A stretch of 13,460 nucleotides of DNA from a virus. Lineage: Duplodnaviria > Heunggongvirae > Uroviricota > Caudoviricetes. The DNA is taken from IMG/VR virus record IMGVR_UViG_2671180439_000004; one strand, 5' to 3'. The position numbers were made by a program. Position 1 is the stretch's first letter. The number at the start of each line of letters is the position of its first letter. Below are positions 1-6,000 of this stretch, in pieces.

Positions 1-3000
1 CCAGCTGGCGTTTGAGACGTGCAATCTCGGTAGACATCTCCAGTTCACGTTCAGAAGACGTCTGCTGATTTTGCTGTTTACTGCGCCAGTTGTAGAGTTG
101 TGATTCATACAGGCTGAGTTCACGGGCTGCGGCAGTAACACCGATGCGTTCAGCAAGCTTCAGGGCTTCACTGCGAAATTCAGGCGAATGCTGTTTACGG
201 GGTTTTTTACTGGTTGATACTGTTTTTGTCATGTGAGTCACCTCTGACTGAGAGTTTACTCACTTAGCCGCGTGTCCACTATTGCTGGGTAAGATCAAAC
301 ATGTTAAAAATGTTAGAGAACACTGCACAACGGAAGAGACAACCAAGCAGGCTTTGATACTTCCTTTTTTGGACATCCTAGGCTTTAACGCATATGATCC
401 GCAAAAAGTCAAAGCTGAATATGGTGCGGACTTCCCTGGTGTGAAAGTGGGTGAGCGTGTAGATTATGCTCTATTCTGCCAAGGTGTTCCCGTTATGTTT
501 ATTGAGGCCAAAGGTTGTAAAGAAAAAATGGACAACCATTGTCCTCAATTATCTAGGTATTTTAATTCTACTCCTGAGGTGACAATATCAGCAATTACTA
601 ATGGAATTGAATGGCGCTTTTTTACGGATCTCAATGAAAAAAATATAATGGATTCAACGCCATTTTTACGAATCATGATGGATGACATTAAAGATTCTGA
701 TGCTGAGCAATTATTTAGATTCCGCCATGACAAATTCAAACCAGAGGCCCTAAGAACCCTTGCAGAAGAGAGTGTTTATATTTCTGCATTTGTTAAAGTC
801 GTGAGTACAAGCCTTCGGGAAGTAGATCATGAATTTGTTAGATATGTTGCAGGACGAGCAAATATTGGTCGTCAATTAAATCAAAGATTTATAGAAACAA
901 TAACTCCATTGGTGAGGCAGGCCGTAGAGAGGTCAGTAAGTGAAATGGTTGTTTCTGGTCTTTCATCAAGAACATCTATTCCTGAATTAGAATCCCCTGC
1001 TGATGTAACTGAAAATAATGTAATTGATGAGCGCGCAGATATTGTCGATGCAGAGAACCCCAACATAGTAACAACCTATAATGAAAGAATTTTATTTGAA
1101 AAAATCTGTTCTATTATAGGCCCTGCATACGAACTTCAAGCCAAAGATACAGAGTCCTATTACTCTATTCTTTTCCAAGGAAAAACAAACCGCTGGCTGG
1201 TTCGCTATTATGACAAGAAGAATCGCTCAAACATACAGTTACCAATTGATATCAATGAAATAACCGGTAATGAAATTAAAAGAGCCGGACTTGAACATGA
1301 TAACAATCGTATTTTCATTGAACATCCCGAGGATGTATTAAGGATTTCAGGTTTAATCCTTGATTCTTTACAATATGTACAGAATGATGAGAATTTCAGA
1401 AAGCGTCGTCCATAATCATAAAAACACTAGCTTTATTTCACACAAATCCCGCTTATGCGGGATTTTTTTTGACCGCCGACCAACATTAGGCTAAGCCTAT
1501 TGACATGACATTAGGCATAACCTAACATCAAGTGAGTCTGATGGACTATGTCATCTTGGCGGCACCAGTTTCCCCATTGTTTCTGGTTCGCCCTTTTACA
1601 AAAGACATCAGAGCACCACCGAGTGACGTGCCCTAACACAATCCGCCCGAGCGGATTTGCGGCCGCAGGTGCTCTTCTGTGTTGTGTGGAGAACTAACGT
1701 ACCGCCATTGCAGTGGCGGTCCCCCATCAGCAAGAAATTTTAACCAGCTATTCACCCATTCTCATGGGTTGGGTTGCTGCACCCTAAATTTACGCGTTGC
1801 AGAGCGTCAGATGGAGAACAAAAGATGGCTAAGACAGCAAAACAACTGATTAAACAGGCGTACGAAATAGCCAAAACTATGCCACCAGAACAGGCAGCAA
1901 TCATCAAGGAACTGGCTACCGTCCTCGATGTTTCGAATGTAGCTCTGCGCCAGACGCGCACCGAACGTGACGCCCTTCTTGCAGAGGTCAAATCATGGGC
2001 GAAAGAGTGTGATCGCCTGACCGAGCGACACACCAAGAATCGCACAAATATGCATGTTCTAGAGGCTATGCGCGATTTGAAGGCAATTTGCCCCACCAGC
2101 TTCCGTAACGTGGAGGCTCTCTGATGGCTAAAGACTCAAAGCTGGTATATGGCGCGAGTGGCAAAACGAACGTTTTAGCGTTTGAACCTGAAAAACTGCA
2201 CCTGGTTACCGACAAAACGCACCCGCTTTACGATGAGCGTATCCACCTGCCTATCAGCGAGGCAATGGTGCTGAACATCATGGACCAGGGCGTTCTTGAG
2301 CCGATTATCGTCTGGAAAGACCCGGAAACAGGGCTGTCTTGTGTGGTTGATGGTCGCCAGCGTGTGCGCCATACACTGGAAGCCAATAAGCGTCTGTCAA
2401 AATTGGGCAAAGAACCGTTACTGGTTCCGGGAGTCCCTAAACGTGGCTCTGCCATTCGCATGGCGCAGGCGATGGTAAGTGCTAACGAAATCCGCCAGGC
2501 AGATACGCCGCTAGGCCGAGCAAAGAAAATGGCTGATGCGCTGGAGCGCGGGCACGATGAGGATGATTTAGCGCTGATGTTTGGCGTGAGTGTCCAGACC
2601 GTACGCGCAACTCTGTCACTGCTGGATGCCACCCAAGCTGTTCGCGATGCAGTGGAGTCCGGAACGGTCACTGTTACCCAGGCGCGTCAGTTGGCATCGC
2701 TTAAACCCGAAGAGCAACGGGAGAAGGTCAAGCAGATCGAGACAGCGACCGCCGGCACCACGGGCCATGAAAAAGCTCGGCGTCAGCGTCAGATCCTCGG
2801 TGATGCAAAGCCGCGCCTGAAAACCCGCAAAGAAATTACAAAAGCACTCGAAGATGCCAGTGGCGAATATGCCGAGGCTCTGCGCTGGGTGCTTGGGGAG
2901 GCGCAATGAATTTTGAACCTGAGAATTACAGCAAATACACCCTGCGTCGGCTCGCCGCCCTGTTAGATGTGATCTGCTGGGTGCTGATTGCCGTAGTAAC

Positions 3001-6000
3001 CGTTGGTATCTGCATGTTTATTGAATGGTGGACAGCATGAGCAACGTAACCAAACCAACCAGCAAGGGGAAATTTGATGGGGCAGTTGATTACCTCTGCT
3101 CCGATGAGGCTCGTTTTCTGGTTATGCGGGGCGACTATAGCGAAGCAGATATTATCCAAGCGTCTGTATCCCAAGATGTGATTGATGCTGAATGAGTGGA
3201 TGCCGAAGGGTGTGTTTTTCCGCCCTTCCGGTTACTACTGGAAGCCAGGAGGTACTACCGAGAATCTAGCCCCAGCAAACGCTTCTAAAGCGGAGGTTTG
3301 GTTAGCTTACGAGAAAGTCGTTGAAGGTCGAAAAAAACTACTCACCTTTCAACAATTGTGGAAAAAATTTTTAAATAGTGCTGACTATGCAGACCTTGCC
3401 CCCAGGACACAAAAAGATTACCTGGCACATGAAAAATACTTGTTAGCGGTTTTCGGCGATGCAGAAGCAAAGGCCATTAAACCAGAACACGTCCGACGCT
3501 ACATGGATGCACGTGGTAAAAGAAGCCGTGTTCAGGCTAATCACGAGCATAGTTCAATGTCTCGTGTATACCGCTGGGGTTATCAGCGTGGTTATGTACC
3601 AGGTAATCCGTGTGTTGGTGTCGATAAGTTTCCTAAACCCCAGCGCGACCGCTACATAACTGATGAAGAGTACATAGCTATCTTCACTCATGCGACACCT
3701 GCAGTTAAAGCCGCGATGGAAATTGCGTATCTTTGCGCTGCAAGGGTATCTGATGTTCTTAAAATGAACTGGAATCAGATTCTTGATAAAGGAATTTTCA
3801 TACAGCAAGGTAAAACTGGTATTAAACAGATCAAAGCCTGGACTGAGCGTCTTAGTGCGGCTGTGGATATTTGCAGGGAATGGGGACAGGATGGCCCTGT
3901 TATCAGGACAATGTATGGTGAGCGTTATTCATACAAGGGATTTAATGAAGCATGGAGAAAAGCGAGAAACGCGGCTTCTGAAGAACTTGGTAGGCCACTT
4001 GATTGCACCTTCCATGATCTAAAGGCTAAAGGGATCTCAGACTATGAAGGATCTGGCAGGGATAAGCAAAAATTCAGTGGTCATAAGACAGAATCACAGG
4101 TACTTGTTTACGACAGGAAAGTTAAAATCAGCCCCACGTTGAACAAGAAAATGAGATGATTCTTTGGCGTCGGAGCATGCTTCGGCGCTAGAATTTTTCT
4201 CAGTGGATTTTCTCAATTTTTCTCATCGGGATGCAGGTCACTGAAAGGGAATGCTGTAAGTGTTTGAATAGTGGCGGAGAGAGGGGGATTTGAACCCCCG
4301 GTAGAGTTGCCCCTACTCCGGTTTTCGAGACCGGTCCGTTCAGCCGCTCCGGCATCTCTCCGTTCAGATGGTTGCCATGATGCCAGGAAATTTGGCATTT
4401 TAACAGTCCCTGTCCGTGCAATTTTGTTCAAGTGACGAGTTTGCGAGCAAAACGATGATTAAGTGGCCCTGGAAAGTACAAGAATCAGCACATCAAACTG
4501 CCCTTCCCTGGCAGGAAGCACTATCGATCCCCCTTTTAACGGGTCTGACGGAACAGGAACAAAGCAAATTAGTCACTCTTGCCGAACGTTTTTTACAGCA
4601 AAAGCGGCTTGTTCCTTTACAGGGCTTTGAACTGGATTCATTAAGAAGCTGCCGGATAGCACTTCTATTTTGCCTACCCGTTCTGGAGTTAGGACTGGAA
4701 TGGCTGGATGGTTTTCATGAAGTCTTAATTTATCCTGCGCCATTTGTGGTCGATGATGAATGGGAAGACGATATCGGTCTGGTGCATAACCAACGTATTG
4801 TTCAGTCAGGTCAGAGCTGGCAGCAAGGGCCTATCGTTTTGAACTGGTTGGATATACAAGATTCTTTTGATGCTTCTGGTTTTAACCTGATTATTCATGA
4901 AGTCGCTCATAAGCTGGACACCCGTAACGGCGATCGCGCCAGCGGAGTTCCCTTTATTCCGTTGCGTGAGGTTGCTGGCTGGGAACACGATCTTCATGCT
5001 GCAATGAACAACATTCAGGAAGAAATCGAATTGGTTGGCGAGAATGCGGCGAGCATTGATGCTTATGCTGCCAGTGATCCTGCTGAATGTTTTGCCGTAC
5101 TTTCTGAATATTTCTTTAGCGCCCCAGAACTTTTTGCTCCTCGTTTCCCTTCATTGTGGCAACGTTTCTGCCAATTTTATCAACAAGATCCTTTGCAGAG
5201 ACTGCATCGCACTAATGATACAGACTCGTTTTCGGCGACGAATGTTCATTAATTAACAACTTTGCAGATTAATTAACCAATTGAAATGACTTATGAAATT
5301 TAGTGTTGACAGACAAGGTACCGCTAAGTAATATGCGCCCCGTTCACACGATTCCTCTGTAGTTCAGTCGGTAGAACGGCGGACTGTTAATCCGTATGTC
5401 ACTGGTTCGAGTCCAGTCAGAGGAGCCAAATTCTAAAAATTCGCTTTTTTAGCGCAATGTCACTGACCTTAGTTGAACATTGTTTTTTAACGGATAGCGG
5501 GTTTTTAACATCTTAAGCGCCCTCGACCTTTATGGTTGAGGGCGTTTTGCTATGAACGCCATCACCATTTTCCCCTCGATTATAAAACTTGAGTTATTCA
5601 GTAGTCTCCCCTCTTGCAACTCACACTCAAAACTGCCTAACGAAAAGTTATTAATTTTCAATCATATTGCTATCAGGATTTACATTTTTTCGCTGTGCTA
5701 GAAAGGGCGCATTTATGTTAGCTCGTTCAGGGAAGGTAAGCATGGCTACGAAGAAGAGAAGTGGAGAAGAAATAAATGACCGACAAATATTATGCGGGAT
5801 GGGAATTAAACTACGCCGCTTAACTGCGGGTATCTGCCTGATAACTCAACTTGCGTTCCCTATGGCTGCGGCAGCACAAGGTGTGGTAAACGCCGCAACC
5901 CAACAACCAGTTCCTGCACAATTCGCCATTGCAAATGCCAATACGGTACCCTATACCCTTGGAGCGCTGGAATCGGCCCAAAGCGTTGCCGAACGCTTCG

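What the first reader, a model, noticed from the sequence alone, without database searches (positions are those of the whole stretch)
1825..4159. Five start/stop-overlapping genes ending in the integrase: ParB-like protein and micro-proteins coupled to int
Every junction in this operon overlaps (TGATG at 2122-2126, ATGA at 2906-2909, ATGA at 3037-3040, and an 11-nt overlap into int), implying tight translational coupling and fixed stoichiometry. A ParB/Srx-fold protein directly coupled to a tyrosine integrase through two micro-proteins is not the usual int-xis layout. The ParB-like protein could be a partition/segregation or CTP-dependent DNA-clamping factor of an episomal stage, a nuclease, or part of a defence or anti-defence module. 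The coiled-coil protein and the two micro-proteins have no assignable function.
Basis: partly seen in the sequence, partly recalled or inferred. Interest (0 to 1): 0.55.

Follow-up and report, generated by a model that had tools for sequence, protein, structure and literature searches.

The report
Deletion scar in a decayed prophage
The five overlapping genes are the tail end of the early-left operon of a decayed lambda-like prophage at the E. coli serU tRNA gene, and the ParB-like gene sits next to the integrase only because a 2.6-kb deletion removed the genes between them, so the layout is ordinary decay rather than a new coupled system.

Summary
In detail: all four start/stop overlaps are at the stated coordinates. 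The interpretation, a ParB-to-integrase module, does not.

- **What the element is.** It is a multiply deleted, IS-hit lambdoid prophage remnant, about 15 kb in a near-identical genome. It lies between 64-bp att repeats at tRNA-Ser serU.
- **What intact relatives show.** Klebsiella phage KpF5, an E. coli SCU-308 prophage and IMG/VR contigs carry 1 to 4 kb of further genes between the ParB-like gene and int. Where the same or the 46%-related integrase is present, these include a DUF4224 excisionase.
- **The deletion.** Aligned to the closest intact relative, the window lacks 2,649 bp, with a 2-nt microhomology at the junction.
  - The 52-aa "micro-protein" is the N-terminal half of a 102-aa gene.
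  - The integrase has lost its own start and first 8 codons.
  - The excisionase is gone.
  - The 11-nt overlap is the scar itself.
- **How widespread the scar is.** It occurs in only 10 of 5,426 complete E. coli genomes and 2 of 80 related viral contigs, all about 100% identical.
- **Regulation.** The operon has its own promoter, bracketed by two operators that copy those of the immunity region.
- **The ParB-like protein.** It is a widespread orphan ParB (N-domain plus HTH, no ParA). Key nucleotide-pocket residues are conserved, and its function is unknown.

Low interest overall.

The parts
1..297 (-). End of an IS3 copy, inserted about 12 codons into the HSDR_N-domain gene
   Evidence: Bases 1-300 match IS3 transposase regions at 100% identity in thousands of E. 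coli records. Homology to the uninterrupted gene in S1-INA-02-B begins at window 298.
298..1415 (+). HSDR_N-domain (type I restriction R N-terminal-like) nuclease gene, 5'-truncated by IS3. It lies between the repressor gene and the early-left promoter, a rexAB-like position.
   Evidence: Pfam HSDR_N scores 54.3 bits. phrog_4225 'endonuclease' matches at E=5e-149. There is no PADLOC hit.
1444..1473 (+). Intrinsic terminator-like hairpin plus T-run that ends the HSDR_N transcript
   Evidence: Nine-pair stem followed by TTTTTTTT.
1486..1528 (+). PL/OL-like control region. Two 15-bp operators (1486-1500 and 1511-1525) bracket TTGACA(1500-1505)-17-TAACAT(1523-1528).
   Evidence: The same TTAGGCnnnGCCTAA-type sites occur three times in the cro/racR intergenic region of the same element, and as a pair at the same place in KpF5. 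None of 100 shuffles reached the observed count.
1529..1824 (+). Leader of about 300 nt, with a conserved hairpin at 1700-1719
   Evidence: The RNA fold has z = -2.8. The 16-mer CGCCATTGCAGTGGCG is exact in 33 of 86 loci, always about 120 nt upstream of the 99-aa gene.
1825..2124 (+). 99-aa helical protein, function unknown. It is a frequent but not obligatory upstream partner of the ParB-like gene.
   Evidence: phrog_15091 matches at E=3e-63 with no function assigned. There is no Pfam or NCBIfam family. It is present upstream of ParB in about 49 of 80 loci.
2124..2909 (+). Orphan ParB-like protein: ParB/Srx-type N-domain plus ParB HTH plus a short C-terminal helical region
   Evidence: Pfam HTH_ParB scores 43.2 bits. 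phrog_1033 matches at E=5e-73. A family profile matches Spo0J, ParB, Noc and KorB structures at E=9e-26 to 1e-7. The AlphaFold2 model has pLDDT 74, and its top Foldseek hits are CTP/CDP-bound ParB and Noc. G77 and R80 are invariant.
2906..3040 (+). 44-aa single-pass membrane micro-protein, function unknown
   Evidence: phrog_2936 matches at E=3e-26. A 19-residue window reaches Kyte-Doolittle hydropathy of up to 2.58. It is present after ParB in about 55 of 80 loci.
3037..3195 (+). Truncated gene: the first 52 codons of a 102-aa phage gene (phrog_28696). Its stop codon is supplied out of frame by int sequence.
   Evidence: It is 100% identical to residues 1-52 of the full gene in Klebsiella phage vB_VIPKPNMC05 and in L028, L029 and L053.
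3191..3192 (.). Deletion junction with 2-nt AA microhomology. About 2,649 bp are missing relative to the closest intact relative.
   Evidence: blastn gives window 1745-3192 = L029 5622-7069 and window 3191-4400 = L029 9719-10928.
3185..4159 (+). Lambda-type tyrosine integrase lacking its native start and first 8 codons (MGRKRAPG). It is otherwise intact.
   Evidence: Pfam Phage_integrase scores 40.2 bits. The match to lambda Int structures is E=9e-13. Residues 9-330 are 100% identical to KpF5 Int. ATG 3185 has no Shine-Dalgarno.
4270..4333 (.). att core next to int: a 64-bp direct repeat covering the 3' part of tRNA-Ser(CGA) serU (tRNA at 4272-4361, minus strand)
   Evidence: ARAGORN. A perfect 64-bp repeat lies 14,967 bp apart in the near-identical genome S1-INA-02-B.

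Best explanation
The region is the promoter-distal end of the early-left (PL-type) operon of a defective lambdoid prophage. The prophage is integrated in the 3' end of the serU tRNA-Ser gene of E. coli.

**Shown**
- The operon starts at a sigma-70-like promoter at 1500-1528. The promoter is bracketed by two operators that are copies of the three in the cro/racR immunity region.
- The operon runs through the 99-aa gene, the ParB-like gene and the 44-aa membrane-peptide gene.
- In intact relatives it continues through a 102-aa gene, several further accessory genes with no assigned function, a DUF4224 excisionase and a 330-aa lambda-type integrase next to att.
- In this lineage one deletion of about 2.65 kb, with a 2-nt microhomology, fused codon 52 of the 102-aa gene to codon 9 of int.
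- That single event produced the 52-aa ORF, the 11-nt overlap and the ParB-to-int proximity.
- It also removed xis and the integrase's own translation start.

**Inferred**
- The start/stop overlaps are the ordinary gene packing of this phage family. They may allow translational coupling, but they do not define a dedicated five-protein complex.
- The operon is silent in the lysogen and is expressed on derepression.
- Excision is crippled. There is no Xis, and int is N-terminally altered and translated only by reinitiation, if at all.
- The ParB-like protein is most likely an orphan NTP (probably CTP)-gated DNA-binding clamp or regulator of the KorB/Noc/HerB kind, acting early in lytic growth on phage or host DNA. 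I put this at roughly 40-50%. It is not a partition protein for an episomal stage.
For: **Source and boundaries**
- The window matches 10 E. coli chromosomes at 100% identity, with the remnant lying between yodB and the serU tRNA gene that is followed by mtfA.
- A 64-bp att repeat flanks a 14,967-bp remnant that lacks replication, lysis, head and tail genes and carries IS copies.

**Intact relatives**
- These are Klebsiella phage KpF5, the SCU-308 serU prophage and IMG/VR loci.

**The deletion**
- The full 102-aa parent gene is shown.
- The native Int N-terminus, MGRKRAPGNEWMPKG, resembles lambda Int MGRRRSHERRDLPPN.
- The KpF5 75-aa gene is excisionase phrog_1266 and is absent from the window.
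- The scar is found only in identical copies: 10 of 5,426 genomes and 2 of 80 viral loci.

**Regulation**

**ParB-like protein**
- The ParB gene is independent of int. It occurs with integrases of 100%, 46% and 27% identity, and in the early-right operon.
- Homology to ParB, Noc and KorB is shown.
- G77 and R80 are invariant. R78, N121 and R124 are nearly invariant. These align to box II G..R and box III N..R.
- There is no ParA-binding motif, and no parA is annotated in KpF5 or the SCU-308 prophage.
- Homologues occur in integrating Burkholderia phages and in only 7 plasmid records.

**Literature**
- ParB-like genes in lambdoid early-left and early-right regions are noted as being of unknown function (PMC12315714).
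- Orphan ParB-CTPase-fold proteins are enriched on prophages and plasmids (PMC12704722).
- HerB is a CTP-binding ParB-like regulator (PMC13370423).
Against: - No exact parent of the window's copy was recovered. The 2,649-bp figure is relative to the closest relative (L029, 93-99% identical in the flanks), and the true deleted length could differ.
- The int ORF is otherwise intact, as are the att repeats. Residual integrase activity by reinitiation at ATG 3200 is not excluded.
- The promoter and operator assignment rests on sequence patterns only.
- For the ParB mechanism, box II is GRQR rather than GERR. Glu, needed for CTP hydrolysis in canonical ParB, is replaced by Arg, and the first Arg by Gln.
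- Box I could not be aligned with confidence.
- Pfam ParBc and TIGR00180 are below threshold.
- No parS-like repeated palindrome was found.
- The AlphaFold2 model is only moderately confident (pLDDT 74, pTM 0.45).
Confidence: 0.9

Rival explanations
1. The five genes form a purpose-built, translationally coupled module. ParB, two micro-proteins and the integrase are made in fixed ratios and act together in integration, excision or maintenance.
For: All junctions overlap. The arrangement is conserved at 100% identity in 10 genomes.
Against: - Those copies are identical, so they record one event.
- Every diverged relative has 1-4 kb of other genes between ParB and int, including an excisionase where the same or the 46%-related integrase is present.
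- The 52-aa ORF is half of a 102-aa gene, and int has lost its own start.
- ParB occurs with unrelated integrases and in the early-right operon.
Confidence: 0.03
2. The ParB-like protein is a true partition (centromere-binding) protein that segregates an episomal form of the phage.
For: Databases name it a ParB/RepB/Spo0J partition protein. The HTH_ParB domain is above threshold. It has the ParB fold.
Against: - No ParA gene is annotated in the two annotated intact relatives, and the protein has no LG(K/R)GL ParA-binding motif.
- The relatives that were annotated or screened carry integrases, and two are integrated at serU. The Burkholderia phages with 51%-identical homologues are integrating phages by general knowledge, not checked here.
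- The gene lies behind a promoter bracketed by two operator-like sites, so it should be off in the lysogen.
- Only 7 plasmid records hold a homologue.
- TIGR00180 scores 25 against a cut-off of 58.
Confidence: 0.06
3. The ParB-like protein is a ParB/Srx-fold nuclease, or an anti-defence or host-takeover factor, rather than an NTP-gated clamp. The 99-aa and 44-aa proteins would be its accessory factors.
For: - It is an early-operon gene spread horizontally among very mosaic contexts, with at least 92% identity in 80 loci.
- Defence-like genes lie nearby (HSDR_N, DGQHR, TIR-like).
- There is a weak hit to phrog_1518 'host nuclease inhibitor' (E=3e-4).
- The survey paper suggests anti-defence roles for phage ParB-fold proteins (PMC12704722).
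Against: - There is no PADLOC hit.
- The full ParB N-domain plus HTH architecture, with conserved G..R and N..R pocket residues, matches the clamp-type ParB, Noc and KorB proteins. It does not match the short nuclease-type ParB/Srx proteins.
- No nuclease motif was identified.
Confidence: 0.2

Closest known systems
Klebsiella phage KpF5 (OR327748), the serU prophage of E. coli SCU-308 (NZ_CP053281) and IMG/VR contig IMGVR_UViG_2687453226_000001 (L029)
   Same: They share the same early-left operon: HSDR_N gene, operators and promoter, 99-aa gene, ParB-like gene, 44-aa gene, the same integrase (97-100% aa identity) and, for SCU-308, the same serU att site.
   Different: They are complete or near-complete phages. 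They keep the full 102-aa or 114-aa gene, EaA/DUF550-type genes, a 79-aa gene, the DUF4224 excisionase and the native int start. The window lacks about 2.65 kb of this, and in near-identical genomes the element also lacks the replication, lysis and virion genes.
Bacteriophage lambda PL operon (N ... xis-int, next to att), with the cI-rexAB immunity region
   Same: - A repressor gene is followed by a lysogen-expressed accessory gene, then a terminator.
- A second operator set overlaps a leftward early promoter.
- A long run of small overlapping accessory genes ends in xis-int beside att.
- The integrase is homologous to lambda Int.
   Different: - The repressor is RacR-like.
- There are no exo/bet/gam genes.
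- A ParB-like gene is present.
- In the window, xis is absent and int is 5'-truncated.
- The second catalytic Arg of the integrase is Lys (HDLK).
Orphan ParB-CTPase-fold DNA-binding proteins of mobile elements: KorB (RK2), Noc, HerB/YfjB (F leading region), BisD (ICEclc), VirB
   Same: - The architecture is a ParB N-domain plus ParB HTH.
- There is no ParA partner.
- The gene is carried by a mobile element and expressed early.
- Box II Gly/Arg and box III Asn/Arg are conserved.
   Different: - Box II reads GRQR, not GERR.
- The protein is short (261 aa) with a minimal C-terminal region.
- No binding site, nucleotide specificity or target is known.
- Sequence identity to solved members is only about 20-25%.
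Cryptic prophages of E. coli (such as Rac, e14, DLP12, CP4-44)
   Same: They are tRNA- or gene-associated remnants that retain an integrase, immunity genes and accessory genes. They have lost virion genes through deletions and IS insertions.
   Different: This remnant derives from a Klebsiella-type lambdoid siphovirus. It is rare, found in 10 of 5,426 complete genomes.

Membership tests
Lambdoid prophage early-left (PL) operon | Same-strand early operon ending in an integrase gene next to the attachment site | tested here: met
   int at 3185-4159 lies 110 nt from the 64-bp att repeat in tRNA-Ser.
Lambdoid prophage early-left (PL) operon | Promoter overlapped by operators that duplicate those of the immunity (OR) region | tested here: met
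   Two TTAGGCnnnGCCTAA-type sites bracket TTGACA-17-TAACAT at 1486-1528. Three such sites lie in the cro/racR spacer, and the same layout is seen in KpF5. This is sequence-level evidence only.
Lambdoid prophage early-left (PL) operon | Excisionase gene immediately upstream of int | tested here: not met
   A DUF4224/phrog_1266 excisionase is present in KpF5, SCU-308, L028, L029, L033 and other loci, but absent from the window because of the deletion.
Lambdoid prophage early-left (PL) operon | Homologous elements are complete temperate phages | tested here: met
   KpF5 and the SCU-308 prophage carry terminase, portal, capsid, tail, lysis, Q and replication genes.
Canonical ParB of a ParABS partition system | N-terminal ParB domain recognised by curated models (PF02195, TIGR00180) | tested here: not met
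   No PF02195 hit at E<0.1. TIGR00180 scores 25.2 bits against a cut-off of 58.45. Homology is nevertheless clear with a family profile (E=9e-26 to Spo0J).
Canonical ParB of a ParABS partition system | ParB-type HTH DNA-binding domain | tested here: met
   PF17762 scores 43.2 bits against a cut-off of 22.6.
Canonical ParB of a ParABS partition system | Partner ParA ATPase gene and the N-terminal LG(K/R)GL ParA-binding motif | tested here: not met
   No such motif is present. No parA is annotated in the window, KpF5 or the SCU-308 prophage.
Canonical ParB of a ParABS partition system | Cognate parS palindrome(s) on the replicon | tested here: inconclusive
   There is no repeated 14-16-bp palindrome in the module. 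One conserved imperfect palindrome or hairpin lies at 1700-1719, upstream of the 99-aa gene, and it is absent where ParB sits in the early-right operon.
CTP-binding ParB-CTPase fold (ParB, Noc, KorB, HerB) | Box II GERRxR and box III ENLQR phosphate-binding residues | tested here: inconclusive
   G77 and R80 are invariant and N121 and R124 are nearly invariant across 61 diverged homologues. They align to G..R and N..R. However, E is replaced by R78 and the first R by Q79, and box I could not be aligned.
CTP-binding ParB-CTPase fold (ParB, Noc, KorB, HerB) | Actual NTP binding and N-gate closure on DNA | not testable with these tools
   This needs a biochemical assay. The AlphaFold2 model (pLDDT 74) resembles CTP/CDP-bound ParB and Noc.
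Lambda-type tyrosine integrase | Catalytic domain with the R..K..HxxR..H..Y signature | tested here: inconclusive
   PF00589 scores 40.2 bits against a cut-off of 27.1, and the protein aligns to lambda Int at E=9e-13 with Tyr in place. The second Arg is Lys (HDLK). This is also so in 46%-identical relatives, so it is probably tolerated.
Lambda-type tyrosine integrase | Intact N-terminal arm-binding domain with its own translation start | tested here: not met
   The native MGRKRAPG and its Shine-Dalgarno are deleted. The ORF now opens at a fortuitous ATG at 3185 or at ATG 3200.

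The most novel reading that the evidence does not exclude
The orphan ParB-like protein (phrog_1033 family) is found in lambdoid phages of Enterobacteriaceae and in Burkholderia temperate phages. It could be an NTP-gated DNA clamp that temperate phages deploy from their early operons. Its role would be to remodel or silence host or phage DNA, in the manner of HerB, KorB or BisD. The 99-aa helical protein might act as a clamp-locking or loading partner, and the 44-aa membrane peptide as an anchor or effector. 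The window would then preserve an intact, repressor-controlled copy of a new class of phage early regulator.
Probability: 0.3. Interest if true: 0.55.

Novelty: already known. Interest (0 to 1): 0.15.

Why it matters
The finding has little importance as framed. The unusual ParB-to-integrase layout is a decay product of a known type of prophage, identical to sequences already annotated in RefSeq.

Two things have modest value.

- **A cautionary example.** This is a clean, base-resolved case in which one deletion made a convincing "micro-protein", an overlapping junction and an apparently novel operon architecture. It is a useful warning for sequence-only scans.
- **A pointer to an uncharacterised gene.** The orphan ParB gene is widespread, highly conserved and horizontally mobile. 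It sits in the early operons of temperate phages behind a putatively repressor-controlled promoter (sequence-level evidence only). Its function is still unknown, and it could be tested in cultivable phages such as KpF5.

Tried and rejected
1. **A KpF5 chimera as the origin of the 52-aa ORF.** I first tested whether it was a chimera of the KpF5 114-aa gene and the excisionase. The alignment showed no homology in 3042-3189, so this was rejected. The true parent, a 102-aa gene, was then found by tblastn.
2. **A parS-like site.** I looked for short-spacer inverted repeats and 16-18-bp palindromes in 1400-4300. None lies inside the conserved module's coding sequence. The only candidate (1700-1719) is a leader hairpin tied to the 99-aa gene, not to ParB.
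3. **Family assignments for the small proteins.**
   - PADLOC gave nothing for any of the five proteins scanned; the integrase was not included.
   - Pfam and NCBIfam gave nothing for the 99-, 44- and 52/102-aa proteins.
4. **A plasmid-prophage origin for the ParB.** Only 7 plasmid records hold a homologue, so this was rejected.
5. **IS3 cutting the operon off from its promoter.** I considered this and rejected it. The operon has its own promoter and operators downstream of the IS and of a terminator.
6. **Box I alignment.** Box I of the ParB pocket could not be aligned reliably from the PDB hits.

Full report
**1. Observation**

The ORF list and the sequence confirm five consecutive + strand ORFs:
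- 1825-2124 (99 aa)
- 2124-2909 (261 aa)
- 2906-3040 (44 aa)
- 3037-3195 (52 aa)
- 3185-4159 (integrase)

TGATG lies at 2122-2126, ATGA at 2906-2909 and ATGA at 3037-3040. The int ATG at 3185 lies 11 nt before the end of the TGA at 3193-3195. RefSeq annotates the same five CDSs in identical genomes. Good Shine-Dalgarno sequences precede the first three genes. The 52-aa ORF has a weak one, and ATG 3185 has none.

**2. Where the window comes from**

The window is E. coli chromosome. Bases 1600-4400 match 10 complete genomes at 99.9-100% identity. The flanks are tRNA-Ser(CGA) serU (4272-4361, minus strand), mtfA, tRNA-Asn and yeeJ.

In the near-identical strain S1-INA-02-B, a perfect 64-bp direct repeat of the 3' part of serU lies 14,967 bp to the left, next to yodB. 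The stretch between the repeats holds:
- a frameshifted UmuD-like gene
- a sialate O-acetylesterase
- an acyltransferase
- a partial rusA
- a Dam methylase
- ymfL
- a cro-like gene
- racR
- an IS3
- an HSDR_N-domain gene
- the five genes of the finding

It has no replication, Q, lysis, terminase, head or tail genes. It is therefore a multiply deleted prophage remnant.

Different strains carry different IS elements in it: IS3, ISKpn26 and IS1. In the window itself, bases 1-297 are an IS3 end inserted about 12 codons into the HSDR_N gene.

**3. Intact relatives**

Three kinds of relative carry the same operon:
- Klebsiella phage KpF5
- an apparently complete prophage at serU in E. coli SCU-308
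- many IMG/VR contigs

In KpF5 the gene order is:
- racR-like repressor
- HSDR_N/DUF450 gene
- rdgC
- 99-aa gene
- ParB-like gene
- 44-aa gene
- 114-aa gene
- EaA/DUF550 gene
- 79-aa gene
- 75-aa DUF4224 protein (phrog_1266, excisionase)
- 330-aa integrase

I screened 80 viral loci whose ParB is at least 92% identical to the window's, using tblastn.
- Integrase homologues, where found, lie 1-4 kb downstream of ParB.
- Three integrase types appear (100%, about 46% and about 27% identity to KpF5 Int).
- Only L007 and L008, which are 100% identical to the window, show the pattern ParB, 44 aa, residues 1-52 of the 102-aa protein, then Int residues 9-330.

**4. The deletion**

Aligning the window to KpF5 shows that homology stops just after the start of the 52-aa ORF. 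It resumes at AATGAGTGGATGCCGAAGG, which is codon 9 of int.

The intervening 148 nt are not novel. They are the first 52 codons of a 102-aa gene (phrog_28696). That gene is full length in Klebsiella phage vB_VIPKPNMC05 and in loci L028, L029 and L053.

blastn against L029 gives two blocks. L029 has the 99-aa gene, ParB, the 44-aa gene, the full 102-aa gene, three ORFs, the 79-aa gene, Xis and the 330-aa Int.
- Window 1745-3192 aligns to L029 5622-7069.
- Window 3191-4400 aligns to L029 9719-10928.

So 2,649 bp are missing, and the junction has a 2-nt (AA) microhomology at 3191-3192.

The deleted interval holds:
- the 3' half of the 102-aa gene
- ORFs of 151, 142 and 348 aa
- the 79-aa gene
- the excisionase
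- the integrase's Shine-Dalgarno, ATG and first 8 codons (MGRKRAPG)

That N-terminus resembles lambda Int MGRRRSHE.

The TGA that ends the 52-aa ORF is int sequence read out of frame. The ATG at 3185 is a fortuitous ATG inside the truncated gene. The junction-spanning sequence occurs in only 10 of 5,426 complete E. coli genomes. All copies are identical, so this was a single recent event. The remaining int ORF is still 100% identical to KpF5 Int over residues 9-330.

**5. Regulation**

A terminator-like hairpin plus T-run (1444-1473) follows the HSDR_N gene. Downstream, two 15-bp inverted-repeat sites bracket a TTGACA-17-TAACAT promoter at 1500-1528:
- TTAGGCTAAGCCTAT at 1486-1500
- TTAGGCATAACCTAA at 1511-1525

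Three sites of the same type lie in the cro/racR intergenic region of the same element. KpF5 has the same 3 + 2 arrangement. In both sources, no shuffle reached the observed count.

I read this as an OL/PL-like control region. This is inference from sequence. The operon would then be repressed in the lysogen and expressed on induction. The HSDR_N gene would occupy the rexAB-like, lysogen-expressed position. The roughly 300-nt leader contains a conserved hairpin at 1700-1719.

**6. The overlaps**

Across the 80 loci, the ParB stop is embedded in ATGA in the large majority, whatever gene follows. TGATG or TAATG joins the 99-aa gene to ParB wherever that gene is present, in about 49 of 80 loci. 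In L029, overlaps also occur between further downstream genes.

Overlapping junctions are thus the normal packing of this operon. They may support translational coupling. They do not define a five-protein unit.

**7. The ParB-like protein**

Family assignments:
- Pfam detects only the ParB HTH (43.2 bits). PF02195 is not detected.
- TIGR00180 is below its cut-off.
- PHROGs places the protein in phrog_1033, 'ParB-like partition protein'.

Family size and homology:
- An exhaustive HMMER search found 2,653 cluster representatives at E no greater than 1e-3.
- A profile of 61 diverged full-length members matches solved structures: T. thermophilus Spo0J at E=9e-26, M. xanthus ParB at 1e-21, Noc at 3e-21, C. 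crescentus ParB at 2e-19 and KorB at 1e-7.

Conserved residues, aligned:
- Invariant columns: G77 and R80.
- Nearly invariant columns include R39, R78, N121 and R124.
- G77 and R80 fall on the Gly and last Arg of box II (GERR).
- N121 and R124 fall on Asn and Arg of box III (ENLQR).
- The box II Glu is replaced by Arg and the first Arg by Gln.
- Box I could not be placed.

An AlphaFold2 model (pLDDT 74, pTM 0.45) has CTP/CDP-bound ParB and Noc, and KorB, as its top Foldseek hits.

Evidence bearing on a partition role:
- There is no LG(K/R)GL ParA-binding motif.
- No parA is annotated in the intact phages.
- The gene also occurs at 97% identity in the early-right operon of another lambdoid prophage, after the replication genes (L015).
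- It occurs at 51% identity in Burkholderia phages phiE125, phi1026b and KS9, which by general knowledge are integrating phages.
- Only 7 plasmid records hold a homologue.

A partition role for an episomal stage is therefore unlikely.

The literature agrees that function is open:
- ParB-like genes in lambdoid early-left and early-right regions have been noted, with function unknown (PMC12315714).
- Orphan ParB-CTPase-fold proteins are enriched on prophages and plasmids and can bind CTP, ATP or GTP (PMC12704722).
- HerB/YfjB of the F plasmid is a CTP-binding ParB-like protein that reprograms host transcription early after DNA entry (PMC13370423).

My best guess, at about 40-50%, is an NTP-gated DNA clamp or regulator acting early in lytic growth. 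A nuclease or anti-defence role (about 20%) is not excluded.

**8. The small proteins**

- The 99-aa protein (phrog_15091) and the 44-aa protein (phrog_2936) are conserved phage proteins of unknown function. The 44-aa protein has one hydrophobic helix.
- Both often flank the ParB gene, but neither always does.
- The 52-aa protein is a truncated gene product.

**9. Verdict**

The coordinates and overlaps are right. The ParB-like and integrase calls are right. The proposed ParB-to-integrase coupling is an artefact of a deletion in a decaying prophage of a known family.

Novelty is nil for the locus as such. The unresolved function of the orphan ParB family is a fair but already recognised open question.

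Noticed in passing
window 1-297 and 298-1415: An IS3 end is inserted about 12 codons into the HSDR_N-domain nuclease gene. Sister genomes carry IS3, ISKpn26 or IS1 at other positions in the same remnant, so the remnant has been hit repeatedly and independently.
   Followed up: partly
window 298-1415: The HSDR_N (type I restriction R N-terminal-like) gene lies between the repressor gene and the early-left promoter. This is the position of rexAB in lambda, so it is a candidate lysogen-expressed defence gene. PADLOC has no model for it.
   Followed up: partly
window 1486-1528; L003 11989-12063; L002 7048-7122 and 8987-9026: A 15-bp operator motif, TTAGGCnnnGCCTAA, occurs three times in the cro/racR spacer and twice around a TTGACA-17-TAACAT promoter upstream of the 99-aa gene.
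   Followed up: yes
window 1700-1719: An eight-pair hairpin, ACCGCCAUUGCAGUGGCGGU, lies in the operon leader. Its 16-mer core is exact in 33 of 86 loci, always about 120 nt upstream of the 99-aa gene. There is no T-run, and its role is unknown. It could be an antitermination, processing or protein-binding site.
   Followed up: partly
window 4013-4024 (integrase residues HDLK): The integrase has Lys where lambda Int has the second catalytic Arg (HxLR becomes HDLK). The same holds in KpF5 Int and in 46%-identical integrases of related prophages, so it is a family trait rather than decay.
   Followed up: partly
window 8163-8165: yeeJ (inverse autotransporter adhesin) carries a single in-frame stop that splits it into ORFs 5667-8165 and 8214-12818. 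RefSeq notes the same internal stop in sister genomes.
   Followed up: partly
L015 5784-7837: In another lambdoid prophage, the 97%-identical ParB gene sits in the early-right operon after the replication genes. A 74-aa Cys-rich ORF precedes it, and a 277-aa TIR-like ORF follows. Other relatives have a DGQHR-domain gene next to ParB.
   Followed up: no
L004 9280-9564: The intact SCU-308 serU prophage encodes an Acb2/Tad1-domain (anti-CBASS/anti-Thoeris sponge-like) protein near its lysis genes.
   Followed up: no
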